From positions 59,981 to 123,980 of the forward strand of contig CAYMIA010000001.1 of assembly GCA_964390595.1 (NCBI GenBank): DNA of 64,000 nt. Reading direction: 5' to 3'. Source of the stretch: an uncultured Gammaproteobacteria bacterium (GTDB lineage: Bacteria; Patescibacteriota; Microgenomatia; Daviesbacterales; UBA10151). This document shows, piece after piece, positions 11,054 to 64,000 of this stretch (the first letter of the stretch is position 1; the number at the start of each line of letters is the position of its first letter). The position numbers and the translations under genes were made by a program. A model generated the notes under the pieces. It was given only the letters and a program-made list of their open reading frames with translations. It did no database searches and was not told the DNA's origin.

Positions 11054-11701
11054 GTGAGAGAGATGGCAAGAATGGTATTGGGTGTTTTTTCTCTTCGAGA
11101 TGAAGCTGAGATGGCAATCCGTGAGTTAGAGCGGGCGGGTTTTGATCCTAAGGATGTTTCTATTATCATGAAAAACCGTGAGGAAGCCCGGGAGATCTCG
11201 GATAATACCGAGGCTAATATCGCTGGAGGAGCGGTGACTGGAGCGACTGCTGGTGGCGCAATAGGCGCGCTTGCAGGTTTACTAATTGGGGTGGGGGCGA
11301 TAGCAGTGCCTGGTGTGGGAGCACTCTTAATTGGTGGCCCGATTGCGGCAGCGCTTGGCTTAACAGGGGCGGCGGCAGCGACTGCATCTGGTGCATTGAC
11401 TGGAGCTTTAGCTGGTGGTTTGATTGGCGGGTTACTTAGTTTGGGTGTGCCAGAAACTGATGCGAGAATCTATGAAGACCGTATTAAGGAGGGTGGTATC
11501 TTGCTTTTGGTGCCAGTTACCGACGGCAATACTGATGAGGCCAGAGAGATTCTGGAGACTAATGGGGCTGATCAGATTAAGATTGTGGGAGACTTAAAGA
11601 GCAGAAGAGGTGAATATGAAAGTCAGGGTTCACCGGCTTTTTATAGTGATGTTCCTAGAAAAAGAAGTGAGATTGATGAGTTTAATGAAGATGATATTTG
11701 A
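11054..11701 (+). CDS. general stress protein (YflT/GsiB-like N-domain) with glycine-zipper membrane segment
   Basis: 215 aa. The N-terminal VVGVFSLRDEAEMAIRELERAGFD...VSII resembles the YflT-type heat/stress-induced domain. An extensive G/A-rich glycine zipper follows. Confidence 0.45.
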   Translation: MREMARMVLGVFSLRDEAEMAIRELERAGFDPKDVSIIMKNREEAREISDNTEANIAGGAVTGATAGGAIGALAGLLIGVGAIAVPGVGALLIGGPIAAALGLTGAAAATASGALTGALAGGLIGGLLSLGVPETDARIYEDRIKEGGILLLVPVTDGNTDEAREILETNGADQIKIVGDLKSRRGEYESQGSPAFYSDVPRKRSEIDEFNEDDI

Positions 11702-53128: not shown

Positions 53129-54649
53129 TTGTGTCAGTTAATCATGACTACCATACAGAGGGTTGATTTCCGCATTGAAAAACTGCAACAATCATTGAAG
53201 TTCTCCCGGGACATTATAGATACTGTCCGTGAACCATTCATAGTACTTGATTCTAAGTTGAGAGTTATGACTGCAAATCCAGCTTTTTACCGCACCTTTA
53301 GAGTTTTAAAAAAAGATACAGAAAAAAAACTCATATACCATTTGGGTGCTAACCAATGGCAGATACCAGAGCTCCGGAAGCTGCTTGAGTCAATTCTTCC
53401 AAAACGTACCACTTTTAAAAATTTTGAAGTTGTGCATAATTTTCCTACCATCGGGCAAAAAATAATGCTTTTAAACGCCCGTAGGATTGACCATGTCGAC
53501 CTCATTTTACTGGCAATTGAAGATGTTACGGAGCGTAGGCAACTGGCAGATAGACTGCACGAAAGTGAGAGACAATTCCGGACATTGATTGAAAAAAGTG
53601 CTGACGCAATTGCACTAGTTAATCCGGAAGGGAAAGTAATTTATGCTAGTCCTTCAACAAAAAATGTCTTAGGTTATTCCGAGAAGGAATTGCAGGGTTT
53701 CACAAATCCATTTGAGCTCGTTCCGCCCGATGATAAAAAAACCGTTACCAAACTATTTGAGGACCTTCTGAAGAAGCCAAGTGGTACAGTCATAGCTGAA
53801 TATCAGGTTAGGCATAAAGGCGGAACACATATCTGGATTGAATCGATTATGACGAACTTGTTACGTGACCCTAATGTCAATGCAATTGTCTTAAATTATA
53901 GGGATATTACCCACCGAAAAGAGCTTGAGAGTCAAAAAGATGACTTTATCGGTATTGCCAGCCATGAGCTAAAAACGCCCGTAACCAGTATTAAAGCATA
54001 TACCCAAATACTCCAAAAACGGTTCGAAAAGCAGGGAGATGAAATAGCAACCCAAAACCTTTCCAAAATGGATGCCCAAATAAACAAATTAAATACTCTT
54101 ATTAGTGATTTGTTAGATGTGACCAAAATTGAGACAGGCAAAATAGTTTTTAATATGCGGTCTTTTGATTTTGATAGCTTGATACGAGAAACAGTGGACG
54201 ATGTAAGACTCACAATTGATAAACATAAGATCTTGGTTAGGGGTAAAACCAGACGGAAAGTTTTTGCAGATAGAGAACGGATTGGATTGGTGCTGGTAAA
54301 CCTTTTGACCAATGCTATTAAGTACTCTCCTAATGCAGTAAGAGTCATTGTCCAACTGTCAGCAGATAAAAGATTGGTTACTGTTGGTGTGCAGGATTTT
54401 GGTATCGGTATTGAAAAAGCCAAACAGGACAAAGTTTTTCAACGCTTCTATCGGGTAACAGGACCTAATGGAAATACTTATCCTGGCCTAGGGCTTGGTT
54501 TGTACATAGCATCTGAGATAATAAAGCGCCATAATGGGAAGATGTGGCTTAAAAGCCAAGCTGGTAAGGGTTCAACCTTTTATTTCTCAATTCCCATCCG
54601 AAAAAAAACAGGGGTACAAAATAAAATAAAAGAAGATATTGAAACATGA
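53129..54649 (+). CDS. PAS-domain sensor histidine kinase (cytoplasmic)
   Basis: 506 aa with two PAS-like segments. H-box ASHELKTPVTSI. HATPase N/G boxes (LVNLLTNAIKYS, GLGLGLYIA). Confidence 0.85.
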   Translation: MCQLIMTTIQRVDFRIEKLQQSLKFSRDIIDTVREPFIVLDSKLRVMTANPAFYRTFRVLKKDTEKKLIYHLGANQWQIPELRKLLESILPKRTTFKNFEVVHNFPTIGQKIMLLNARRIDHVDLILLAIEDVTERRQLADRLHESERQFRTLIEKSADAIALVNPEGKVIYASPSTKNVLGYSEKELQGFTNPFELVPPDDKKTVTKLFEDLLKKPSGTVIAEYQVRHKGGTHIWIESIMTNLLRDPNVNAIVLNYRDITHRKELESQKDDFIGIASHELKTPVTSIKAYTQILQKRFEKQGDEIATQNLSKMDAQINKLNTLISDLLDVTKIETGKIVFNMRSFDFDSLIRETVDDVRLTIDKHKILVRGKTRRKVFADRERIGLVLVNLLTNAIKYSPNAVRVIVQLSADKRLVTVGVQDFGIGIEKAKQDKVFQRFYRVTGPNGNTYPGLGLGLYIASEIIKRHNGKMWLKSQAGKGSTFYFSIPIRKKTGVQNKIKEDIET

Positions 54650-55038
54650 GAAAAAAAGGTAAAAGTCTGGAGCGAGGTCGTAGGGTGTTGGTTGCAGATG
54701 ATGATCTGGCAATTTTGGATGTTATAAAACAGATCTTGGAGGAGGTAGGTTATGAGGTAAAAACCACAGTAAATGGTGAGACTGTTAGAACAATGCACCA
54801 GGAATTACCCGATTTACTTTTACTTGATATCTGGATGTCAGGAACCGATGGGCGAAATATTTGTAAACAGCTAAAAAACCAAAAATCAACAAAGCAGATT
54901 CCGATTGTTATGATTTCAGCAAATAAGGATATAAAAGTAATTGCCAAGGAGGCAGGCGCAGATGACTTTTTAGTTAAGCCATTTGAGATGAATGATTTAC
55001 TGAATATGGTGGCTAAGTATATTGGTACTGTTGATTAG
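54646..55038 (+). CDS. stand-alone response-regulator receiver (CheY-like)
   Basis: 130 aa with VLVADDDLAILDVI and LLLDIWMSGTDG (phospho-acceptor Asp). The conserved K is in LVKPF. It overlaps the histidine kinase gene by 4 nt. Confidence 0.85.
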   Translation: MRKKGKSLERGRRVLVADDDLAILDVIKQILEEVGYEVKTTVNGETVRTMHQELPDLLLLDIWMSGTDGRNICKQLKNQKSTKQIPIVMISANKDIKVIAKEAGADDFLVKPFEMNDLLNMVAKYIGTVD

Positions 55039-55076: not shown

Positions 55077-55691
55077 TTAGGATAAGGCGTCTATTTGTCT
55101 TAGTCCATAGGTATATCTTTGTTCCTTAATATTACCAACGCTGTGGAATTGTTGGCCATCAAGGGGAGCAAAACCAGGAGCTCGCATTAGGACTACCATA
55201 CCAGGTATAGTCTCAATTTTTTGAATGTAAGGGCTGAATCTATCAAAATAAGTATAGAAGTCAGCTTCCCCCGCTAGAGCGATAACAGCAACTAAATTAA
55301 TGTAACGGGCTTTATCGAGATGGGTGGTAATACCTATTGAATTAGGTGGATGTTTTTGCAGAACTTGGGCGTTCAATCTTAACGGCGTAGTAAAGGGATA
55401 ACGGTCCAGAAGCCTAAATTGGTAATCTAACTCAGTTTGAAGGGCGTCTTTTAGAATGAAGAATAAACTATCATCAGGAAAATTTTCAAATGAAGCAAGT
55501 TGCTGTCTAACCTCGGTGGGTTTGCCTAGATTCACATATTCCGTCGCATCCAGGTAAGAATAACCTTGAGCTTCTTCAAGAAGTTGCCTCCTGATAGGTT
55601 CGGATAAAATCATCATGTTACTGGCACCAGTAGTGCTTAAGTCATGAACTATGCGTTCAGCATCAATATTTTGGCGAAGCAGAATTTCCAT
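55077..55691 (-). CDS. hypothetical protein
   Basis: 204-aa ORF. No motif recognised. Confidence 0.4.
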   Translation of the reverse strand: MEILLRQNIDAERIVHDLSTTGASNMMILSEPIRRQLLEEAQGYSYLDATEYVNLGKPTEVRQQLASFENFPDDSLFFILKDALQTELDYQFRLLDRYPFTTPLRLNAQVLQKHPPNSIGITTHLDKARYINLVAVIALAGEADFYTYFDRFSPYIQKIETIPGMVVLMRAPGFAPLDGQQFHSVGNIKEQRYTYGLRQIDALS

Positions 55692-55726
55692 TTTGAGTAG
55701 TATAACACTCGGCTGAGGGGGATGGT

Positions 55727-57043
55727 TTAGAAGAAGGCGATTGGAGTGCCTATTTTGTCAGTACTAAATTTTTTAACTATAATATTTCCGCTCTTAACGT
55801 CGATAACTTCCCAATTATAACCATAAGGTTTAACTAGTGATAAACTGTAATACAAAAGGTATTCCTCATTTGTAGAAAAAATGACGGTTTGGGGTACATC
55901 ATTAAGATAAGCAGTTCGATTTGTGTCAGAATTATCGGTCAGGCCAGTACTCGATACTAATCTGCCATCCTGTGAGTAAATGTTTAATCTCTCGTCATTG
56001 GGGACTGGTTGAGATTTCAAAAATAGTGCTAGATATTTATTAGTTGGTGACCAAACTCCTCCCGGAACTAGCTCAAATCTAAAATTTGGAGGATTATCTA
56101 AGTTGATTTGAGTTTTAGGTTTAGCTAAGTCAGCAAGTGAATATATTTTTATGGTTCGAGAGGAATCTAAGTCGCCTTGATTACTGAGGGAGATTACATT
56201 TTCCTTGCTTGGACTAAAAACTTCTTTGTGGTTAGGATCAATTAGCGGTATGTCAGTTTTTTTATTTAAATCAAACAGATAATATTTCTGATCAGTATGC
56301 CCAATGTTTTGATTATAAGTTACTATGTTTTCGCTTTGATCATAATAAAGATTTCCCAGAATTGGGGCGTTTTTCTTAAATAATATTTTGGGGACGAGGG
56401 TGGTAGCATCCATTACCCCAACGGCTCTTTCGGTTACTGTTGAGGAATTGATGTTTGGATCATTGCTAGCCACGAAAACCAGACTTTGGTTATTTGATGA
56501 CCAACCAGCAAAGAGGATATTTGAATAGCCAGTGGCTTGAATGACCTTGGGGGTATTTAATTGTTTTAAATTTGTGCCATCAACGTTAGCGATATACTGA
56601 TCAGCTCTTAAGTTACTGGGGTCAGTAATATTTTTCATGGCAAAAATTAGTATTTTGGAGCTATCTGGAGAAGCAACTGCACTAATATATGTGTCTTTAT
56701 CTGGTACTAAGTTAGTGTTAAATGTCTGGATATTTTCTCCTTTGGTATCAGAAATTTGCAGGGTTGATCCGGGCTTTCTTGTGGAGAATAGGATCTTATT
56801 TTGAAAGGCTAAATGTGGTGGAATAGTTGGTATAGGAGCTTGGGTTGGTAGCACCTCGGTGTGGTTGGCAGTTTTTGGTTGATTATTTTTTTGACCAATT
56901 AGTTCAGGGTGAGAGTTCTTGATATACAAAGATCCACCCACTATTCCAGCTGACAGAACTCCGATGATTAACAAGAAGATCAGGGTAGCAAATCCTTTTT
57001 GGTGCATTAGTATTAGTTTTGCACAATCAGTCAATAAATCCAA
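55727..57043 (-). CDS. secreted WD40-like/TolB-like beta-propeller protein
   Basis: 438 aa with an N-terminal TM/signal. Repeated beta-strand-rich segments with a periodic YxS/DG..I pattern. The call rests on composition and periodicity only. Confidence 0.4.
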   Translation of the reverse strand: MDLLTDCAKLILMHQKGFATLIFLLIIGVLSAGIVGGSLYIKNSHPELIGQKNNQPKTANHTEVLPTQAPIPTIPPHLAFQNKILFSTRKPGSTLQISDTKGENIQTFNTNLVPDKDTYISAVASPDSSKILIFAMKNITDPSNLRADQYIANVDGTNLKQLNTPKVIQATGYSNILFAGWSSNNQSLVFVASNDPNINSSTVTERAVGVMDATTLVPKILFKKNAPILGNLYYDQSENIVTYNQNIGHTDQKYYLFDLNKKTDIPLIDPNHKEVFSPSKENVISLSNQGDLDSSRTIKIYSLADLAKPKTQINLDNPPNFRFELVPGGVWSPTNKYLALFLKSQPVPNDERLNIYSQDGRLVSSTGLTDNSDTNRTAYLNDVPQTVIFSTNEEYLLYYSLSLVKPYGYNWEVIDVKSGNIIVKKFSTDKIGTPIAFF

Positions 57044-57093
57044 GCAGATGGTTTGAATGACCTACTAGATGGTATAATGCCGCCAGTAATTAG

Positions 57094-57648
57094 ATGACAA
57101 AAAGATTGATGCAAACTTTTAAATATTGGTTGCCGCTGGCGTTTGCTACCACGGCCGTTTCTGGTTTAGTTTATGCTACTGTTCAGCAAAATTATAGGCA
57201 ATCAGCTAATGATCCCCAAATTCAAATGGCAGAGGATGCTGCTGCATTGCTGTCAAATGGGATCGATCCTAAAAGTTTGGTAGCTGAGAATAAAGTGGAG
57301 ATATCCAAGAGCTTGGCTCCATATATCATAATTTTTGACAGCCAAGGAGTGGTTTTAGCCTCTTCTGGACAACTGGATGGAAGAGTACCAACTCCTCCTA
57401 GAGGTGTGCTCCAATCTGCAACTAGCAAATCGGAGAATAGAGTAACATGGCAGCCTAGAGATGATGTTAGGGGGGCCGCTGTAGTGACCCGTTTTGAGGG
57501 AACAACTTCAGCTGGTTTCGTTTTGGCGAGCCGCTCGCTCCGGGAAGTTGAAGTTCGGGAAAACCGGTTAACATTTACAGTCGCTGTTGCCTGGGTTGTC
57601 ACCATGCTAGGAAGTTTGCTCTTGATATTTTTTCTTTCGGTCTTCTAG
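57094..57648 (+). CDS. membrane-anchored hypothetical protein (N- and C-terminal TM)
   Basis: 184-aa ORF immediately upstream of the primase-like gene. No motif recognised. Confidence 0.4.
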   Translation: MTKRLMQTFKYWLPLAFATTAVSGLVYATVQQNYRQSANDPQIQMAEDAAALLSNGIDPKSLVAENKVEISKSLAPYIIIFDSQGVVLASSGQLDGRVPTPPRGVLQSATSKSENRVTWQPRDDVRGAAVVTRFEGTTSAGFVLASRSLREVEVRENRLTFTVAVAWVVTMLGSLLLIFFLSVF

Positions 57649-57760
57649 TTTCAGGATTGATATAGTTTAGACGTCTTGTATTTTTATTCAATAACTTCTA
57701 CTTTAAAGGTGTATTTACAACTCTGCTGCCCGCAAGTTATTCTAAATTATGGGGTAATTT

Positions 57761-60556
57761 ATGACTATGATAGAGGGCAAACACAAAGACCTTTGGGGTC
57801 ACCAAGTCGCATTTGATACCGCTTTATTGGAGCGGGTTCCAAACCCCTCCCGCAGATTTCAGGATTGGGTAGAGTCGGCTATGCATGATTACAAAAAGGT
57901 GGTTATTCCTGCAGACAGTGAGACCGGAAAACCAACCGAGCGGATAGTTAATAGCAGCAGGGTTGATATAGCGGTTAGTGCAATTATTCAAAAAGGGTTG
58001 GCAGATAGCGCTTTGGAGGCGTTAAGTTATCTCAATGGGATGCTCGCCGATTTTAAACCAACTACTTCCCGGATCGCTAAGCAAGATTTTGACAGACGGG
58101 GAAATTCAGAGAAATGGCGGTTGATAAGAGAGAAGGTTGGGGAAACACCTAAACCCAAAACTGATACCACTCACAGACAACATGGGACTTTTGGGCATGT
58201 CGCTATCGCTGATATTTTGGCGAATATCATGACCAATAAGGAATCAGCTGTTCAGCCCAATTTGCCGCTTGTTTTAGATGGACAGCTGTCGTTACCAGGA
58301 GATTTTGGGGTTCCAAAAAGGGTGATTGATTGGGACTATATGACTGAGTTGGATCAATATCTGGGGGAACTGCGAACAATATTAGACCAAAATACTGATG
58401 GAAAGTTGACTTTTACTCGGGCAACTTTAGCGAATTTTGTAGGGAATAGGTTAAGTGAGCATTTAAGGTCAGTCTATGGAAATGAGCATATGGATAAGAT
58501 TAGATTCAATGGCGATCCAGGCCGGAATCATTTAACTGTATATACTTTGGCAATTTGGGGTGGCGCAGCTAAGTTCGCTTTAGGTTCAGATGCCCGGATA
58601 CTTTTTTCCGAGCTAGCTCCATGGAATGAAAAAGCCCACACTTTTAAAGGACGGCCGGTCAATGTTGGGCGGATGGATGCGGTTGAACTGACTAGTTTAA
58701 GTGGTCAACCTTTGTCAAATGAACAACTCAGAAGAGCCAGGCAAATTGTTCGGGAGCACCCTCGTAATACAGAGGAACTGTTACGTCATTTAATGGGTAC
58801 TTTTAATGGTAGTCTGGATCTTAGTCAAGATCTCAGGATCATTGATTTTAAAATGGGTTTCGGAGATGGTTCACAAAAAAATCAAGTTATCTATGCCAAT
58901 CAAATTGCGGAGGGGCCATTTCCAGATCATGCCCGTCAAATTCGTGATTACGCGAGCAATGCGACACTTGCAGCTTATGAAGTTATCCGGCAAGAAGGCC
59001 GGCCAGTCCCGGAAAACTGGTGGGACTTGGAGGCGTTTAATTTTGCCTCTTTGTGTTATTTTTTGCACAGTGATGATGAACCAGTTGATCATTGTGAAAT
59101 TGTGACTCCAGACCAAAAGAGAGAATATGCCGAGAGAAGAGCAGACAGGTTGCCTGTTGTGCAAAGAAAGGCTGATATTAGAGATACAGATAATTTTGTG
59201 GCTAATTATTTGGTTGGAGTGTTAGAAAATAGGGCGGTAACGCTACCGGTTCGGGCCTTGCCAATGCAAATGGAGGGTGTAACTGCGGTTTCAGAGATCG
59301 ACCGGCTATATGAAAGCCGCCGGGTTTTTGTTGATGGTCAAAGGATTGTGGAAGAAGTTGGGGGTAGAAACAGCCGGTTTAGGGTGATGCATGTCGATAC
59401 CCTAATTAAGGCGATTAACAGTGGAGATATCGAGACAGGTTATTTTGGTCTCGACCGTGGCGGAATGATTAAATGTTTTTTGCCTGAGCATGGAGGAGAA
59501 GATGATACACCTTCTCTATATTTGTCGATTGACAGGGGAACTTTTAAATGTTTTGGCCGGTGTTCAGGTATCCCGCCTTTTAGAGGAGGTGGCCGGTTTG
59601 CTATGGATTCTATTCCAGAGAATTTGCCAGAGATATCTGAGCAGTTTAGGTCTAAATACTTTAGGGGAGAGCGGGCATCAGGAACTGAACCAGACCAAGA
59701 TCACTTGAAATTTATGCGAGATGCTCAGGAGGTTTTTACCCGGGCTTTTAGAGATAGCCCAGCTCAGGATTATTTGACCCAAGTTAGGAAAATTGATGCT
59801 GATTTAGCGGCTGCTTATGGAGTAGGCTTTGCTACTGTCGGATCAATTAGACAACTGCTTGAAGCCTATGATTTGGACTCTCTTATTAGATATGGACTAG
59901 TTGGTTACTCGGAGTATAAAGGTAGGCGGGGGAGTTTGTATGGATTGTTGAAATATAAAGGTTATAGCGATGCAGACATTGTCAAGGAACACCTGGTGAA
60001 GAAAGGCATCATTGATAATCATTATCCTTATTTTATTTTGGATCAAACTGCGACTTTCCCCTTAACTTTAGATGCTTCCCGGATCAATAGTTTTTATGGC
60101 CGAACCGTTAATGAAACAAATAAGCGGTTTGCTCACCGAAAATTAAGGTTGGCCGACCATGGTGGCTTTAATATGGGCGTTTTAGAGAGCGGTTACGATG
60201 AACTAATTATGGTGGAGGCGCCCATTGATGGCTTAAGTTTTATTCAAATGGGTTTAGAAAATACAGCCGCATTAATTGGAGTGAATAATGAATTTATCTT
60301 AAGGCAAGTGGCTAAATCAGGCAAAGCTCTGGCTTTTTCATTAGACAACGATCCAACAGGCCGGGATGTGACGGCTCATCTGATATCGCATATGGGCCAT
60401 ATTAATCCGTCGCTTCGAACCCGAGACTTTACAGCGGCGTTGAATGACGCTTTTTACGAAGGACTATGGAGTAATCCAGTCAATTGGAAAGATGCTAATC
60501 ATTTGTTAACAAATTATGGACCGGATGTTCTGTCAAATATGCGTCTCGCCGCTTAA
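57761..60556 (+). CDS. DnaG-type primase core (zinc-binding domain + RNA-polymerase/Toprim domain) fused to a 560-aa N-terminal domain of unknown function
   Basis: 931 aa. Around aa 560-600 there is a CHC2-like zinc finger (IKCFLPEHGGEDDTPSLYLSIDRGTFKCFGRCSG). The DnaG linker follows (AQDYLTQVRKIDADLAAAYGVGFA). Next is the RPD N-subdomain (ILDQTATFPLTLDASRINSFYGRTVNETNKRFAHRKL). Last is Toprim (DELIMVEAPIDGLS ... FSLDNDPTGRD). The first 560 aa have no match I can recognise. No C-terminal DnaB-binding domain. Confidence 0.7.
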   Translation: MTMIEGKHKDLWGHQVAFDTALLERVPNPSRRFQDWVESAMHDYKKVVIPADSETGKPTERIVNSSRVDIAVSAIIQKGLADSALEALSYLNGMLADFKPTTSRIAKQDFDRRGNSEKWRLIREKVGETPKPKTDTTHRQHGTFGHVAIADILANIMTNKESAVQPNLPLVLDGQLSLPGDFGVPKRVIDWDYMTELDQYLGELRTILDQNTDGKLTFTRATLANFVGNRLSEHLRSVYGNEHMDKIRFNGDPGRNHLTVYTLAIWGGAAKFALGSDARILFSELAPWNEKAHTFKGRPVNVGRMDAVELTSLSGQPLSNEQLRRARQIVREHPRNTEELLRHLMGTFNGSLDLSQDLRIIDFKMGFGDGSQKNQVIYANQIAEGPFPDHARQIRDYASNATLAAYEVIRQEGRPVPENWWDLEAFNFASLCYFLHSDDEPVDHCEIVTPDQKREYAERRADRLPVVQRKADIRDTDNFVANYLVGVLENRAVTLPVRALPMQMEGVTAVSEIDRLYESRRVFVDGQRIVEEVGGRNSRFRVMHVDTLIKAINSGDIETGYFGLDRGGMIKCFLPEHGGEDDTPSLYLSIDRGTFKCFGRCSGIPPFRGGGRFAMDSIPENLPEISEQFRSKYFRGERASGTEPDQDHLKFMRDAQEVFTRAFRDSPAQDYLTQVRKIDADLAAAYGVGFATVGSIRQLLEAYDLDSLIRYGLVGYSEYKGRRGSLYGLLKYKGYSDADIVKEHLVKKGIIDNHYPYFILDQTATFPLTLDASRINSFYGRTVNETNKRFAHRKLRLADHGGFNMGVLESGYDELIMVEAPIDGLSFIQMGLENTAALIGVNNEFILRQVAKSGKALAFSLDNDPTGRDVTAHLISHMGHINPSLRTRDFTAALNDAFYEGLWSNPVNWKDANHLLTNYGPDVLSNMRLAA

Positions 60557-60802: not shown

Positions 60803-61408
60803 ATGAAATTAGGATATAAAGTTGGTGCGATGTTATCAACTGGAGCCTTGCTGGCTTCTGTTTTTGCTCCAGTAGCTTTTGCTAGCAGTGATGTGACCGT
60901 TTCAGGAAATGGTGCAGGTTCAACAAGTATTGTTAATGTATCCGGTGGAACTAGCGGTGGTGGAAGTGTTACTCAAACTAATAACACAACCGTGCTAACT
61001 ACGGTCAATGCTTCAAGCAACACAGGTTATAACCAATCTAATGCTAATACTGGTGGGGGTGTAAGCACTACTACCGGATCCGCTACAACAGGCGTTAACG
61101 TTTCAGTTGCAGGTGGTACAAATGTGGCAACAGGTACTGATTGTGGTTGCGCAACAAACACCAATACAGTCAATGTTCTTGGTAATGGAGCTGGATCTCT
61201 CAATTTAGTTAATATTTGGGGGAGTAAAAAAGGTTCTTCAACTAAACAAACAAATAATGTATTTGTTGGTGTGGGAGTAAATGCAGGATCAAATACTGGT
61301 TACAACCAGTCAAATGCAAATACCGGACCTGGTGGAGTCACCACAGCAACTGGTGGATCTACAACTGGTGTAGGAGTTAATGTGACGGGTTCAACAAACG
61401 TCCATTAA
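60803..61408 (+). CDS. secreted Asn/Gly/Thr-rich tandem-repeat protein (two repeats of about 85 aa)
   Basis: 201 aa with signal peptide MKLGYKVGAMLSTGALLASVFAPVAFA. Repeat 1: VSGNGAGSTSIVNVSGG...NASSNTGYNQSNANTGGG...VNVSVAGGTNV. Repeat 2: VLGNGAGSLNLVNIWG...NAGSNTGYNQSNANTGPGG...VNVTGSTNV. Confidence 0.55.
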   Translation: MKLGYKVGAMLSTGALLASVFAPVAFASSDVTVSGNGAGSTSIVNVSGGTSGGGSVTQTNNTTVLTTVNASSNTGYNQSNANTGGGVSTTTGSATTGVNVSVAGGTNVATGTDCGCATNTNTVNVLGNGAGSLNLVNIWGSKKGSSTKQTNNVFVGVGVNAGSNTGYNQSNANTGPGGVTTATGGSTTGVGVNVTGSTNVH

Positions 61409-61427
61409 ATCTTTTAGTTTTTCAAAT

Positions 61428-61460
61428 AAAAGCCCCTTGGGATTCAGGGGGCTTTTTTAT
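61428..61460. terminator. rho-independent terminator (likely bidirectional)
   Basis: AAAGCCCC-ttgggattca-GGGGGCTTTTTTATT: a GC stem followed by a T-run. It lies between convergent genes (60803..61408 + and 61470..62054 -). Confidence 0.6.
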
Positions 61461-61469
61461 TCCCGAGGA

Positions 61470-62054
61470 CTATTTTTGATCAGCAAAAACTAGTAGCCTT
61501 TTAAATGAGGTACCAATTGGAGTACAGGTTTGTAAAATAAGTTGATGGGGGGATTTTGAGGTTAGAAACTCGATCTGATCTGGCCAAACAACTTTTTTGT
61601 CAGTTACTTTATAACTATATTCCTGGCCATCTTTGTATAAATTAATACTATCACCATTTTGAAGCTGTCCTAACTTAAGAAAGATGGTATTAATATAAGT
61701 TAAGCGCCAAGGGGCATTTGAAGAATGAGCAAATAAATAGATCGTGCCGGCATCTCCAGGTAGAGCTGTTCCTTTGGCTTGAGCGACGCCTTTTTCCAGG
61801 GCAGCGTTGTATTCTGACTCATTCCAAGGATTGACATCTGGGATAACTTTGGCTTCGGCCTGAATCTTGGGTATAGAGATGAAATAACCCTGATTAGGGA
61901 GATGGGGATTTAATCTAGGTGGAAAGAGATAAATTTTGATGACCGGAAGGTAGATTAAAAATATTCCTAGCACAGCTGCTAGCATGAGGGTATTTCCCAA
62001 CAATTGAATGGGACTTTTTTTAACCCTTTTTCTGCTTGCGGAGGATTTATTCAT
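61470..62054 (-). CDS. sortase (transpeptidase)
   Basis: 194 aa with an N-terminal TM anchor. Catalytic His context (IYLFAHSS) and TLxTC motif (LILQTCTP). Confidence 0.75.
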   Translation of the reverse strand: MNKSSASRKRVKKSPIQLLGNTLMLAAVLGIFLIYLPVIKIYLFPPRLNPHLPNQGYFISIPKIQAEAKVIPDVNPWNESEYNAALEKGVAQAKGTALPGDAGTIYLFAHSSNAPWRLTYINTIFLKLGQLQNGDSINLYKDGQEYSYKVTDKKVVWPDQIEFLTSKSPHQLILQTCTPIGTSFKRLLVFADQK

Positions 62055-62068
62055 TAAGTAGGAGAATT

Positions 62069-63265
62069 TTAGCGCCGTGCTCTGGCATATGCAACCCAGC
62101 CAGAAGGGGTTGAAGAATTTAGTCTTAAATGTAGACCAATGAAGAATAGACAGGCAAATAAAAGACTAAGGATTAATAACTCGTTGTTTCCAGTAGAGGG
62201 GAGAATCAGACCCGTCGTAGTTCCAAGTACAGATGGGCTTCCTCCTGAAGAAGAGCTGCCTGAATTTGTTGTGGTAGTAGTGGTGTTGGTTGTAGTAGTA
62301 GTTGGTGGTGTTGTTCCGCCCGAAGGGGGTGAACCAGGGGGAATGGATCCGCCTGGAGGTGGGGGAGGAGTTGTTGACTGGCAACAGGCAATAACAATCT
62401 GGCTCCCATTTAAATTAAAATTAGCAATAATAGTGTCTAGCATAATATTGCCAGTGTTTATCCAAACAGATCCGTTATTATTTGATGCAGTGTTTCCTCC
62501 GGTGTTGGCGTTGTAGAAAATATTGTTCTTAAGTATTAAGTTGTTAATAACTGAGATCGTATTATTGGAATTGTTATTTGTGATGACATTATTTTTTGAT
62601 CCAGAACCATTGCCGGATATTTTGATATCTGATATGGTCGAATCTGAGGAAGGAATGGAGATAGCGGACTGATTGATGTTGGTGTTAATAATTTGATTGT
62701 TAGCCGAGATATTGCCCGTATTAATGGAAACACTTCCATTGTTATTGTTGGCATTGTTTGAACCAGTATTAGCCGATCCGGAGATGTTGTTTTGAATAGC
62801 AGCTGTTTGATTGGTAGTCACAGTAGTTTGAGCTGTTTGATTGACTTGAATGCTGTTTTGGGAGTTTGAGCCATTGCTTGTCACTGCAACAGATGTATTT
62901 GCAGAAGTCGGGCAACAGTTTTGCTGAACTGTCGAAGTATTGAGATGATCGTTGCTGACTGTGGTATTGGAAGTTGAAGCACCAGTTTGTATTTGCGTCG
63001 AGAGCGGCTGGCTACCGGAGGAATTTGCTGTGTTGTTTGACGCGGTATTCGCTCCAGTATCAGAAGTCCCAGAAATATTGTTATTGATCGAAGATTGGTT
63101 AGATTGACTGGTAGTTGACGAGCTAGGTTGAGAGACAGTCACTTGAGTATCTGAGTTTGATCCATTGCCAGAAACCACAATTTCCTCAGCGAATACCACC
63201 TTAGGAGAACCAACAAAAAGTAATATAGATAGAATATTTACAATAATTAGAAGTCTGCTCTTCAT
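62069..63265 (-). CDS. LPXTG-anchored Asn/Ser/Thr-rich repeat surface protein (sortase substrate)
   Basis: 398 aa with a signal peptide. Repetitive SGNGS...ANTG.NTASNN motifs. A Pro/Thr-rich stalk (PPPPPGGSIPPGSPPSGGTTPPTTTTT) is followed by LPSTG, a hydrophobic segment and a basic tail (ARARR). Confidence 0.7.
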   Translation of the reverse strand: MKSRLLIIVNILSILLFVGSPKVVFAEEIVVSGNGSNSDTQVTVSQPSSSTTSQSNQSSINNNISGTSDTGANTASNNTANSSGSQPLSTQIQTGASTSNTTVSNDHLNTSTVQQNCCPTSANTSVAVTSNGSNSQNSIQVNQTAQTTVTTNQTAAIQNNISGSANTGSNNANNNNGSVSINTGNISANNQIINTNINQSAISIPSSDSTISDIKISGNGSGSKNNVITNNNSNNTISVINNLILKNNIFYNANTGGNTASNNNGSVWINTGNIMLDTIIANFNLNGSQIVIACCQSTTPPPPPGGSIPPGSPPSGGTTPPTTTTTNTTTTTTNSGSSSSGGSPSVLGTTTGLILPSTGNNELLILSLLFACLFFIGLHLRLNSSTPSGWVAYARARR

Positions 63266-63275
63266 TCTAATTTTT

Positions 63276-64000
63276 TTATTTCTTTTTAATAAAACTGATT
63301 AAATTAATAATTTTTTTACCAAAAACTAAGAAGATAATTATAGGTAAGGAGACAACCAACCAAGCTAAGTTAACTGTCATTTTGGAATTTTCAGAGTTTA
63401 TTAGGCCACCTGCTAGAGGATTATTTGAGCTTTTGTAACCAGCTATTTGGACGTTATTGATGCTGCTCGCACCTAAGACATTATTTGGTGATGAGGCATT
63501 TCCAGCTGAGACTGTCGTTTGAGTTTTAGTAATACCGATGACCGTCGTAACAGGTGCAGGATTTGGAGTAGATAATACGACAACTGTGTTGGTGCCAGCT
63601 CCGTTTGAGTTGTTTTGTTGGCCACCCTGAGGTGGGTTTTGGCTGCTAGAGTTGGCGGTTTGGTTGGTGGTTTGTTTTTTCATGCCTGGAGTAACGAAGT
63701 CGCCAATCCAACTTCCGAAGACATTGACAACGGTTACAATTAACCGACCATTACCTTTGATATTGTTGTTGACGAAGTTGACAATGTTGGCGACAATTTT
63801 GGCATTTCCAGTAGTGATTGTAGAGTCACCGCCGGTGTTGTTGTTAGCTTGGTTATTACCAGTATTGGCTGAGAGATTTAAGTTATTGGAAACTTTAGCG
63901 CTGTTTGTTTGGGTGAGTGTGCTGTTGCCATTTTGATTGATGTTGGTGGTATTCTGCGAACTAGCTCCGTTTCCGCTGTTGGTCGCATTGACATTGCCAT
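63276..64000 (-). CDS. Asn/Thr/Gly-rich surface protein, 5'-partial (continues beyond window)
   Basis: The ORF track starts at Met 63683, but the frame stays open upstream to the window edge (...SNNLNLSANTGNNQANNNTGGDSTITTGNAKIVANIV...GSWIGDFVTPGMKKQTTNQ...). C-terminal TM plus KKK. The motif family is the same as the two neighbouring repeat proteins. Confidence 0.5.
   Translation of the reverse strand, partial: GNVNATNSGNGASSQNTTNINQNGNSTLTQTNSAKVSNNLNLSANTGNNQANNNTGGDSTITTGNAKIVANIVNFVNNNIKGNGRLIVTVVNVFGSWIGDFVTPGMKKQTTNQTANSSSQNPPQGGQQNNSNGAGTNTVVVLSTPNPAPVTTVIGITKTQTTVSAGNASSPNNVLGASSINNVQIAGYKSSNNPLAGGLINSENSKMTVNLAWLVVSLPIIIFLVFGKKIINLISFIKKK

What the first reader, a model, noticed from the sequence alone, without database searches (positions are those of the whole stretch)
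57761..60556. 931-aa protein: DnaG primase catalytic core fused behind an unrecognisable 560-aa N-terminal domain, away from any replication context
The C-terminal 370 aa or so are a DnaG core: a CHC2-like zinc finger (KCFLPEHG...FKCFGRCSG), the linker, the RPD N-subdomain and a Toprim with the E...DxD signature. In bacterial DnaG the zinc-binding domain is at the extreme N-terminus. Here it is preceded by about 560 aa with no motif I recognise, and the C-terminal DnaB-interaction domain is absent. The gene is flanked by membrane and surface-protein genes, not by rpoD or rpsU as in the usual macromolecular-synthesis operon. This is either an unusual housekeeping primase for this lineage or an accessory primase-like enzyme, for example from a mobile element or a nucleic-acid-targeting system. 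The N-terminal module is the unknown part.
Basis: partly seen in the sequence, partly recalled or inferred. Interest (0 to 1): 0.75.

Follow-up and report, generated by a model that had tools for sequence, protein, structure and literature searches.

The report
RecB-like nuclease fused to DnaG primase
This 931-aa protein joins a RecB/Cas4-type DNA-end nuclease to a DnaG-type primase that lacks its helicase-docking domain; it belongs to a rare, undescribed family of tiny-genome (CPR/Patescibacteria) bacteria and, in relatives, sits alongside the ordinary replication primase rather than replacing it.

Summary
ORF 57761-60556 (+) encodes 931 aa. Its C-terminal ~390 aa are a divergent but complete DnaG core: a CHC2 zinc ribbon, the RPD N-subdomain and a Toprim domain. 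There is no helicase-binding domain.

An exhaustive HMMER search finds 272 relatives, most 850-960 aa with the same architecture. All 15 genomes recovered are Patescibacteria MAGs.

Two independent relatives' genomes also carry a canonical dnaG-rpoD pair, so there the fusion is an accessory enzyme, not the housekeeping primase. It has no widely conserved neighbour and no mobile-element or recent-transfer signal. It keeps its position among related genomes but evolves faster than its neighbours. Nuclease-only versions exist.

Most likely it is a helicase-independent enzyme that loads on free single-stranded DNA ends, trims them and primes them, for repair or restart. Anti-invader defence is the main rival. 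The architecture appears undescribed.

The parts
57761..60556 (+). Complete gene for the 931-aa nuclease-primase fusion protein
   Evidence: ORF list. Full-length homologues of 850-960 aa with E down to 4e-80. M1 aligns in 97% of members.
57649..57760 (+). 112-nt upstream intergenic region; the gene appears monocistronic
   Evidence: Sequence shows GGGG about 8 nt before the ATG. Two promoter-like hexamer pairs at 57657-57684 and 57714-57743, but their number is no higher than in shuffled sequence. A 246-nt gap follows the stop codon.
57803..58060 (+). Small N-terminal alpha/beta domain (aa ~15-100), function unknown
   Evidence: AF2 model built on the MSA: helices 31-42, 67-77, 84-96 and strands 46-49, 59-62, mostly pLDDT >85. 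W36, G79 and L91 are conserved. No fold or sequence match could be assigned to it.
58073..59140 (+). RecB/Cas4/Dna2-type PD-(D/E)xK nuclease module (aa ~105-460) with helical insertions
58184..58198 (+). Nuclease motif I, G142-T-F-G-H146, in helix 134-153
   Evidence: G142 and H146 are invariant in 40/40 members. Assigning H146 the role of the metal-ligand His of RecB (H956) rests on established knowledge and is an inference.
58610..58612 (+). Invariant E284, on strand 281-286
   Evidence: Invariant in 40/40 members. Strand assignment from the model.
58667..58678 (+). Nuclease motif II, G303-R-M-D306 (family consensus GGRIDALE), at the start of strand 305-310
   Evidence: D306 is invariant and G303 is conserved in 95% of members.
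58844..58867 (+). Nuclease motif III, D362-F-K364-M-G-F-G368-D369 (family consensus DWKFAVGD), on strand 358-365
   Evidence: K364, G368 and D369 are invariant. Position 362 is D or E in nearly all 22 members displayed (one has A).
58937..58951 (+). QxxxY motif (Q393-I-R-D-Y397) in helix 388-411, the RecB-family signature
   Evidence: Y397 is invariant, Q393 is conserved in 97% and H390 in 95%. Helix assignment from the model.
59141..59392 (+). Linker: long helix 461-488 (R474 95% conserved), a disordered stretch ~489-511, and the lead-in to the zinc-binding domain
   Evidence: Model secondary structure and pLDDT dip. Conservation.
59393..59590 (+). DnaG-type CHC2 zinc-binding domain (aa ~545-610): C572, H577, C597, C601
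   Evidence: phmmer to 2au3 covers aa 545-694. The three Cys are invariant and H577 is conserved in 80%. Zn_ribbon_DnaG is found in 32/40 members.
59693..60175 (+). RNA-polymerase domain, N-terminal subdomain (aa ~645-805), including Y779-G-R781 and H792-R-K794-L795
   Evidence: Pfam DNAG_N matches aa 666-788, with a best E of 4e-14 among members. The family profile matches E. coli, S. aureus and M. tuberculosis DnaG RPD structures. Conservation. Equivalence to the GGR / KYLN motifs of DnaG is an inference.
60194..60505 (+). Toprim domain (aa ~812-915): E819, D823, D862-x-D864, D911-x-N913
   Evidence: Toprim_2 E 1.3e-7. Alignment to 5vaz. Conservation 85-95%.
60506..60556 (+). Short C-terminal tail and stop codon; no helicase-binding domain
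   Evidence: At most 51 residues follow D911 in all 40 members, with a median of about 17. No DnaB_bind hit in any member.

Best explanation
The gene encodes an accessory, helicase-independent nuclease-primase. It is one polypeptide made of (i) a small N-terminal domain, (ii) a RecB/Cas4/Dna2-type PD-(D/E)xK nuclease without an Fe-S cluster, and (iii) a DnaG-type primase (CHC2 zinc ribbon, RPD N-subdomain, Toprim) that has lost the DnaB-docking domain. It belongs to a rare family specific to Patescibacteria.

Shown here: the fold assignments, the conservation of both active sites, the absence of the helicase-binding domain, the coexistence with a canonical dnaG-rpoD pair in relatives, and the stand-alone genomic status.

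Inferred mechanism: the primase cannot be recruited by DnaB, so the nuclease module targets the enzyme. In its structural relatives (Dna2, MGME1, Cas4, AddAB/AdnAB) this type of nuclease engages free single-stranded DNA ends or flaps. The nuclease would trim the ssDNA end using a metal-dependent site formed by H146, D306, D362 and K364. The zinc ribbon and RPD would then lay an RNA primer on the same single strand, turning a resected end, flap or gap into a primed template for fill-in or replication restart. This would be a chromosome-maintenance function in bacteria with minimal genomes.
For: - Real gene with full-length homologues.
- DnaG core.
- Catalytic residues of both enzymes are invariant or nearly so across 40 members at ~27% mean identity, and they sit on the expected secondary-structure elements.
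- No helicase-binding domain.
- Not the housekeeping primase in relatives: canonical dnaG+rpoD plus the fusion gene on one contig in L012/L031 and in L029.
- Long-term chromosomal resident rather than a mobile element: GC3 z-score +0.5; no flanking repeats; none in plasmids or viral contigs; same position kept in related genomes L006/L007/L011/L023 and L013/L016.
- The nuclease is the core unit: nuclease-only proteins of 494-511 aa with intact motifs exist, and L013 has cleanly lost the primase half at a syntenic site.
- DNA-end or repair flavour of the occasional neighbours: a GIY-YIG-like nuclease immediately downstream in 5 of 34 locus groups, and a Mu Gam-like end-binding protein upstream in L009.
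Against: - No biochemical data. Nuclease polarity, substrate and primase activity are all inferred from folds and motifs.
- The family is rare and patchy: 272 clusters among 1.84 billion representatives, 15 genomes of 185,579 species with the strict motif. It evolves faster than its neighbours, 30-45% against 45-82% identity. Both features also fit a conflict or defence gene.
- Most family members match PADLOC's DRT-associated DnaG-like model.
- The window's own genome was not shown to hold a canonical dnaG.
- No full-length model was obtained, so coupling between the two active sites is conjecture.
Confidence: 0.5

Rival explanations
1. It is a single-gene anti-phage or anti-plasmid defence effector. 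The DnaG-like module senses or engages invading single-stranded or replicating DNA, and the PD-(D/E)xK nuclease destroys it. Alternatively the nuclease generates fragments, as Cas4-family ACE1 does for Argonaute.
For: - Patchy, rare distribution.
- Evolves faster than syntenic neighbours.
- Variable neighbourhoods with no operon partner.
- 34 of 40 members match PADLOC 'RTasDnaG-like' and 22 of 40 match RT_UG29. DnaG-type primases are documented parts of Class 3 UG/Abi defence reverse transcriptases (PMC9226505).
- A second nuclease (GIY-YIG-like) is adjacent in some loci.
Against: - The window protein itself has no PADLOC hit, and the members' hits are explained by the generic DnaG domain.
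- No reverse transcriptase or other defence gene is a conserved neighbour.
- The neighbours sampled are housekeeping-type: MsrA, FtsH, AhpC, oxidoreductase.
- The gene keeps the same position across genomes whose neighbours are only 45-80% identical, which is unusually stable for a defence gene.
- Host-like composition.
Confidence: 0.27
2. It is the lineage-specific housekeeping replicative primase of the window organism, a DnaG that acquired an N-terminal extension.
For: The primase catalytic residues and zinc finger are intact. No other primase-like ORF occurs in the 64-kb window. The gene's composition matches the host.
Against: - Two independent relatives' genomes have a canonical dnaG (569 and 601 aa, one with a DnaB_bind hit) directly upstream of rpoD, as well as the fusion gene.
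- The helicase-binding domain needed for replisome coupling is absent in 40 of 40 members.
- The primase half has been lost at a syntenic site in L013.
- The family is far too rare to be the primase of a phylum-level lineage.
- The TIGR01391 score is 35.7 against a cut-off of 283.6.
Confidence: 0.05
3. It is the replication-initiation or priming protein of an integrated plasmid, phage or other mobile element.
For: Primases that lack a DnaB-binding domain and are fused to other enzymes are typical of plasmids and phages (established knowledge, e.g. TraC/Sog, T7 gp4). A Mu Gam-like gene lies directly upstream in L009. There are weak tblastn hits to Helicobacter phage primases.
Against: - No hits in 72,556 plasmids.
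- No confirmed hit in IMG/VR with the family motifs.
- PHROGs hits are weak and confined to the primase half.
- No flanking direct or inverted repeats.
- No compositional deviation.
- No conserved mobile-element genes among neighbours of 34 locus groups.
- The window flanks are a two-component system and cell-surface genes.
Confidence: 0.08
4. One of the two modules is not an enzyme. Either the nuclease-like domain serves only as a DNA-end-binding or regulatory module, or the Toprim acts as a nuclease rather than a polymerase.
For: Toprim domains act as nucleases in OLD, AriB and retron effectors (papers listed). PD-(D/E)xK folds are sometimes inactivated (established knowledge).
Against: All canonical catalytic residues of both modules are invariant or nearly so at ~27% mean identity. 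These include the zinc ligands and the RPD N-subdomain motifs, which are specific to primases and are not needed for a Toprim nuclease.
Confidence: 0.1

Closest known systems
Bacterial replicative primase DnaG (TIGR01391; structures 2au3, 1dd9, 5vaz)
   Same: CHC2 zinc-binding domain, RPD N-subdomain and Toprim in the same order. The acidic Toprim residues, the zinc ligands and the GGR/KYLN-like motifs are conserved. The family profile matches 2au3 at E 1.7e-24.
   Different: The zinc ribbon is internal, behind ~540 extra residues. There is no C-terminal DnaB-binding domain. The score is far below the equivalog cut-off (35.7 against 283.6 bits). The gene is not next to rpoD or rpsU. It coexists with a true dnaG in relatives.
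RecB-family nuclease domains fused to helicases: Dna2, AddAB, AdnAB, RecB
   Different: The partner is a primase, not an SF1/SF2 helicase. There is no Fe-S cluster, unlike Dna2, AddB and AdnB. It has large helical insertions and an extra N-terminal domain. Pfam PDDEXK_1 does not detect it.
Cas4-family nucleases, including Argonaute-associated ACE1 (9iab) and Cas4 SSO0001 (4ic1)
   Different: No four-cysteine cluster. No cas or Argonaute neighbours. Roughly twice the size. Fused to a primase, a fusion that the Cas4 phylogenomic survey does not mention.
MGME1 (mitochondrial genome maintenance exonuclease 1)
   Different: MGME1 is a single-domain eukaryotic protein. Sequence identity is ~10-12%, and it has no primase.
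Primase fusion proteins: T7 gp4 / Twinkle (primase-helicase) and UG29 defence reverse transcriptases (DnaG-type primase + RT + hydrolase)
   Same: A DnaG-type zinc ribbon plus Toprim primase used outside the canonical DnaB-DnaG replisome, as one module of a multi-enzyme polypeptide.
   Different: The fused partner here is a PD-(D/E)xK nuclease placed N-terminal to the primase. There is no helicase, reverse transcriptase or C-N hydrolase domain. The T7 gp4 match is only E ~0.2-0.8.

Membership tests
Bacterial DnaG primase (canonical, TIGR01391 equivalog) | CHC2 zinc-binding domain | tested here: met
   C572, H577, C597 and C601. The Cys are invariant. Zn_ribbon_DnaG is found in 32/40 members. 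2au3 aligns to aa 545-694. The domain is internal, not N-terminal.
Bacterial DnaG primase (canonical, TIGR01391 equivalog) | RNA-polymerase domain: DNAG_N subdomain plus Toprim with conserved E, DxD and D-x-D/N acidic residues | tested here: met
   Toprim_2 E 1.3e-7. DNAG_N E 1e-3 in the window protein and 4e-14 among members. E819, D823, D862, D864 and D911 are conserved 85-95%.
Bacterial DnaG primase (canonical, TIGR01391 equivalog) | C-terminal DnaB-helicase-binding domain | tested here: not met
   No DnaB_bind or related hit in 40 members. At most 51 residues follow the last Toprim motif. The canonical DnaG of L012 does show DnaB_bind.
Bacterial DnaG primase (canonical, TIGR01391 equivalog) | Score at or above the curated equivalog cut-off | tested here: not met
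   35.7 bits against a cut-off of 283.6.
Bacterial DnaG primase (canonical, TIGR01391 equivalog) | Sole primase of the genome, typically in the rpsU-dnaG-rpoD neighbourhood | tested here: not met
   The window context lacks rpoD and rpsU. In L012/L031 and L029 a separate canonical dnaG sits directly upstream of rpoD. The rest of the window organism's genome was not available.
Bacterial DnaG primase (canonical, TIGR01391 equivalog) | Template-directed RNA primer synthesis | not testable with these tools
   Needs biochemistry.
RecB/Cas4-family PD-(D/E)xK nucleases | Restriction-endonuclease-like alpha-beta-beta-beta-alpha-beta core fold of the RecB type | tested here: met
RecB/Cas4-family PD-(D/E)xK nucleases | Catalytic motifs: His-containing helix, Asp (motif II), (D/E)xK (motif III), QxxxY | tested here: met
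   H146, D306, K364 and Y397 are invariant. Q393 is conserved in 97%. Position 362 is D/E in nearly all 22 members displayed. All lie on the expected helices and strands.
RecB/Cas4-family PD-(D/E)xK nucleases | Detection by the family's sequence profiles (Pfam PDDEXK_1 PF12705, Cas_Cas4 PF01930) | tested here: not met
   No such hit at E <= 0.1 in any of 40 members. No PDB sequence hit with the N-module profile.
RecB/Cas4-family PD-(D/E)xK nucleases | Four-cysteine Fe-S cluster (Cas4/AddB/Dna2/Exo5 subgroup only) | tested here: not met
   No alignment column in the N-module has Cys in 30% or more of members. This places it with the cluster-less branch (RecB, MGME1, RecE).
RecB/Cas4-family PD-(D/E)xK nucleases | Metal-dependent nuclease activity on DNA ends | not testable with these tools
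   Needs biochemistry.
Defence-associated DnaG-like proteins of UG/Abi reverse-transcriptase systems (PADLOC RTasDnaG-like, RT_UG29) | Match to the PADLOC model | tested here: inconclusive
   The window protein has no hit at E <= 0.01. 34 of 40 members hit RTasDnaG-like (best 5e-23) and 22 of 40 hit RT_UG29, presumably through the shared DnaG domain.
Defence-associated DnaG-like proteins of UG/Abi reverse-transcriptase systems (PADLOC RTasDnaG-like, RT_UG29) | Fusion or adjacency to a UG/Abi reverse transcriptase and a C-N hydrolase or phosphohydrolase | tested here: not met
   No conserved neighbour family across 34 locus groups, and none of the 20 neighbours scanned with Pfam (10 in the window, 10 in other loci) is an RT or hydrolase. 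No RT domain in the protein.
Plasmid/phage primases (TraC/Sog type, T7 gp4 type) | Encoded on a plasmid, phage or integrated element; often fused to a helicase | tested here: not met
   No plasmid hit. Only three weak phage hits to the primase half. No viral contig. No helicase domain.

The most novel reading that the evidence does not exclude
The family is a self-contained 'resect-and-prime' machine. A RecB-like nuclease threads and trims a free single-stranded DNA end and hands the strand to a covalently attached, helicase-independent DnaG primase. This would give ultra-small Patescibacteria a previously unknown route for filling in resected breaks, restarting replication, or converting imported single-stranded DNA into duplex. 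It would be a bacterial analogue of eukaryotic primase-dependent end fill-in and of the mitochondrial MGME1/Twinkle division of labour. If so, DnaG-type primases can be targeted by something other than the replicative helicase.
Probability: 0.25. Interest if true: 0.75.

Novelty: new variant of a known kind. Interest (0 to 1): 0.58.

Why it matters
Bacterial DnaG is generally described as a primase that works only when docked on the DnaB helicase. Here a conserved family has removed that dock and fused the primase to a DNA-end nuclease. This implies a different way of choosing where to prime.

Both halves are well-understood enzyme types, so the hypothesis can be tested directly in vitro. The family has no Pfam, NCBIfam or PHROG model for its N-terminal half, and full-text searches found no paper describing the architecture.

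It is confined, as far as sampled, to Patescibacteria/CPR. The DNA maintenance and defence repertoires of these bacteria are poorly known and they are hard to study experimentally. Whether it proves to be a repair or restart factor or a new defence effector, it adds a new architecture to both the primase and the RecB/Cas4 nuclease families.

Tried and rejected
Approaches that gave nothing or could not be run:
1. Word-index homologue search, run three times (full protein, full-length alignment, N-terminal alignment), returned only the protein itself or canonical DnaGs. The exhaustive HMMER search was what found the family.
2. Single-sequence AlphaFold of the full protein gave pLDDT 32 and was unusable.
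3. Sequence profiles for the N-module found nothing in Pfam, NCBIfam, PHROGs, PADLOC or PDB.
4. The AFDB50 fold library was unavailable.
5. Exact-protein contig look-ups for the target and for pyruvate kinase were not on record, so the window organism could not be named and the rest of its genome could not be examined.
It was redone with seven closer core sequences.
7. A neighbour-joining tree against taxon labels was star-like, and the MAG labels looked unreliable, so no conclusion on horizontal transfer was drawn.
8. Literature searches for a nuclease-DnaG fusion, a CPR primase, Cas4 fusions, and CPR RecBCD/AddAB found no description.

Hypotheses tested and rejected:
9. Mobile-element hypothesis: plasmids gave none and phages only weak primase hits. 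The viral-contig motif scan gave none. No flanking repeats. No GC or GC3 deviation.
10. Housekeeping-primase hypothesis: rejected on the dnaG-rpoD coexistence in L012 and L029.
11. Conserved-operon hypothesis: rejected. The only recurrent neighbour is a GIY-YIG-like ORF in 5 of 34 groups, and it is absent from the window.
12. OLD/AriB-type Toprim nuclease reading: rejected, because the primase-specific zinc ribbon and the RPD N-subdomain are conserved.


Full report
**1. The observation**

The ORF is exactly where stated: 57761-60556 on the + strand, ATG start, 931 aa. A 112-nt intergenic region with a GGGG Shine-Dalgarno-like run precedes it, and 246 nt follow it. It therefore looks monocistronic. 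Promoter-like and terminator-like sites are no more frequent than in shuffled sequence.

The window is ordinary chromosome. It holds pyruvate-phosphate dikinase, pyruvate kinase, G6PD, a DinB-type polymerase, an MFS transporter, a two-component system and seven tRNAs. Downstream lie a repeat-rich surface protein, a sortase and an LPxTG-like protein.

**2. The C-terminal part is a DnaG core without a helicase dock**

- Pfam finds Toprim_2 (aa 816-879, E 1.3e-7) and a sub-threshold DNAG_N (aa 666-788).
- TIGR01391 aligns aa 580-879 at 35.7 bits, far under its 283.6-bit cut-off.
- PDB phmmer aligns Aquifex DnaG (2au3) to aa 545-694 and Pseudomonas DnaG (5vaz) to aa 762-872.
- With a profile of 40 family members the match to 2au3 rises to E 1.7e-24. 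E. coli, S. aureus and M. tuberculosis DnaG RPD structures follow.
- Zn_ribbon_DnaG is detected in 32 of 40 members.
- The zinc ligands (C572, H577, C597, C601), the YGR and H-R-K-L motifs of the RPD N-subdomain, and the Toprim acidic residues (E819, D823, D862, D864, D911) are conserved in 80-100% of members.
- The protein ends 20 residues after the last Toprim motif. In all 40 members the tail is at most 51 residues, and none has a DnaB_bind hit.

**3. The family**

The word-index search saw only the protein itself. The exhaustive HMMER search of 1.84 billion cluster representatives found 272 proteins at E <= 1e-3, of which 108 are at E <= 1e-30. Most are 850-960 aa, ~30% identical, and aligned from about residue 65 to 895. 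The two-part architecture is therefore a conserved family, not a one-off fusion or a mis-assembly.

A motif-based scan of one genome per species (185,579 species) recovered 16 loci from 15 genomes. Fourteen carry Patescibacteria/CPR labels (Saccharibacteria, Paceibacterota, Nomurabacteria, Yanofskybacteria, Minisyncoccia); one is labelled only 'bacterium'. A metagenome scan added 28 loci, giving 34 non-redundant locus groups. The window organism itself could not be named.

**4. The N-terminal part**

Alignment of 40 members showed invariant residues in the 'unrecognisable' region: D109, G142, H146, E284, D306 (consensus GGRIDALE), K364 with G368 and D369 (consensus DWKFAVGD; here IIDFKMGFGD), and Y397. 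Q393 and H390 are nearly invariant. This reads as the RecB-family motif set: a His-bearing helix, then D, then (D/E)xK, then QxxxY.

No sequence profile confirmed it, so I predicted the structure of aa 1-540 using a 39-sequence alignment of N-terminal parts. The model has mean pLDDT 82.9 and pTM 0.83. The single-sequence model had been useless.

The invariant residues sit where the fold demands:

| Residue(s) | Element in the model |
|---|---|
| H146 | helix 134-153 |
| E284 | strand 281-286 |
| D306 | start of strand 305-310 |
| D362-x-K364 | strand 358-365 |
| Q393/Y397 | following helix 388-411 |

No cysteine is conserved in this module, so there is no Cas4/AddB/Dna2-type Fe-S cluster. I conclude that aa ~105-460 are a RecB/Cas4-family nuclease with helical insertions. 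A small alpha/beta domain of unknown function (aa ~15-100) precedes it, and a long helix and a flexible linker follow it, leading into the zinc ribbon.

**5. Housekeeping or accessory?**

In locus L012 (a Minisyncoccia MAG, also recovered as L031) the family gene (921 aa) lies 3.7 kb upstream of a canonical dnaG. That dnaG is 569 aa and has Zn_ribbon_DnaG, DNAG_N, Toprim and DnaB_bind. A complete sigma-70 gene follows it directly.

In L029, from a 262-kb metagenomic contig, a 601-aa canonical dnaG (36% identical to that of L012) is followed by rpoD (58.5% identical). The family gene lies 2.7 kb further on. In at least two independent genomes, then, the fusion coexists with the classical dnaG-rpoD pair.

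The rarity of the family points the same way: 272 clusters at 50% identity, and 15 genomes with the strict motif, which about one third of members carry. For the window organism itself the question stays open. The 64 kb hold no second primase-like ORF, and the rest of the genome was out of reach.

**6. Context and evolution**

- No neighbour is conserved across the family.
- Of ten neighbours scanned in other loci, six gave Pfam hits: MsrA, FtsH, an FAD/Rieske oxidoreductase, AhpC, a histidine phosphatase and, in L009, a Mu Gam-like end-binding protein directly upstream. Three others had no hit, and the tenth is the rpoD of L012 already noted.
- In five of 34 locus groups a ~280-aa ORF follows ~115 bp downstream on the same strand. 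Its C-terminal half carries a GIY-YIG-like signature, and one member hits PF01541 at E 7.4e-6. The window has no such gene.
- There is no sign of mobility. Nothing was found in plasmids, and only three weak phage hits to the primase half. Nothing was found in IMG/VR with the family motifs. There are no flanking repeats.
- Composition is host-like: GC z +1.2, GC3 z +0.5 among 56 ORFs of the window.
- In two sets of related genomes the gene keeps its position, but it is much less conserved than its neighbours: 30-45% against 45-82% identity, and 37-43% against 62-76%.
- In L013 the gene stops after the nuclease module (508 aa) and abuts the same neighbour that follows the full-length gene in L016. 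This is a clean loss of the primase half.
- Five clusters of 494-511-aa nuclease-only proteins with intact motifs also exist.

The nuclease module is therefore the autonomous core, and the primase is an add-on.

**7. Mechanism (inferred)**

The structural relatives of the N-module (Dna2, MGME1, Cas4, AddAB/AdnAB, RecE) are nucleases that engage free DNA ends, mostly by threading single-stranded DNA. This is established knowledge of those families. DnaG needs single-stranded template and is normally delivered by DnaB through the C-terminal domain that is missing here.

The simplest reading is that the nuclease module provides the targeting. The enzyme would load at an ssDNA end, flap or resected break, trim it, and synthesise an RNA primer on the same strand, giving a polymerase a start for fill-in or restart.

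Stable chromosomal residence and occasional GIY-YIG or Gam-like neighbours fit a maintenance role. Patchiness and fast evolution fit defence equally well, and so do the PADLOC hits of most members to DnaG-like components of UG/Abi reverse-transcriptase systems (PMC9226505). I rate repair/restart about 0.5, defence about 0.27, and the mobile-element and housekeeping readings low.

**8. Comparison and novelty**

The protein works like a DnaG and like a RecB-family nuclease, but it is a full member of neither curated family. It fails DnaG's helicase-binding domain, equivalog score and context, and it is invisible to the PDDEXK_1 and Cas4 profiles.

RecB-type nucleases are classically fused to helicases, and DnaG-type primases to helicases (T7 gp4, Twinkle) or, in defence, to reverse transcriptases (UG29). 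A nuclease-DnaG primase fusion was not found in the Cas4 phylogenomic survey, nor in full-text searches.

I classify it as a new variant of known kinds, with moderate-to-high interest. Both activities and the end-targeting hypothesis are directly testable.

Noticed in passing
L007:6557-7471, L011:8807-9655, L014:9797-10642 (=L019), L020:2740-3624 (=L022), L023:2520-3377: A ~280-aa ORF sits immediately downstream (~115 bp, same strand) of the family gene in 5 of 34 locus groups. Its C-terminal half has a GIY-YIG-like signature (GVYxIxE...VYVGKS...RI...E..LI..PRDN). One member hits Pfam GIY-YIG at E 7.4e-6, and the N-terminal half is unknown. It is absent from the window.
   Followed up: partly
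L013:220-1746 versus L016:2-1723; proteins P0124, P0129, P0139, P0146, P0148: Nuclease-module-only versions (494-511 aa) with intact catalytic motifs exist. In L013 the primase half is cleanly missing at a position syntenic with the full-length gene of L016.
   Followed up: partly
L012:8302-11226 (=L031) and L029:3550-6584: In two independent genomes the canonical dnaG-rpoD pair lies within 3-4 kb of the fusion gene, once downstream and once upstream. This is more often than expected by chance for ~1-Mb genomes, but the numbers are too small to test. It could be a relic of a local duplication of dnaG.
   Followed up: no
L009:8232-9056: A Mu Gam-like (Ku-related, DNA-end-binding) protein is encoded directly upstream of the family gene on the same strand. 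Seen in one locus only.
   Followed up: no
window 60803-63683: A cluster of cell-surface genes. It comprises a 201-aa Gly/Ser/Thr/Asn-rich internally repeated protein (GC2 z +4.1, GC3 z -3.0), a sortase (61470-62054, -), a 398-aa low-complexity protein ending in an LPSTG-like sorting signal plus TM helix (62069-63265, -), and a further 135-aa S/N/Q-rich membrane-anchored protein.
   Followed up: no
window 55077-57648: Three consecutive ORFs (204, 438 and 184 aa) directly upstream of the target have no Pfam hit at E <= 0.01. The 184-aa and 438-aa products look membrane-anchored.
   Followed up: no
window 11054-11701: This 215-aa ORF (GTG start) is the strongest compositional outlier of the window (GC 0.489, z +3.2; GC1 z +2.4, GC2 z +2.1). 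It was not annotated.
   Followed up: no
window 53129-55038: A PAS-domain histidine kinase and a stand-alone receiver-domain response regulator with overlapping stop and start codons, so probably an operon. Two-component systems are uncommon in very small genomes.
   Followed up: no
L006, L007, L011, L023 (flanking block of 5-6 genes): The family gene stays adjacent to the same conserved gene block in four genomes, but its orientation relative to the block is inverted in L006 compared with L007/L011/L023. MAGs labelled 'Saccharibacteria' and 'Nomurabacteria' share this synteny, which suggests that some public taxon labels are unreliable.
   Followed up: partly
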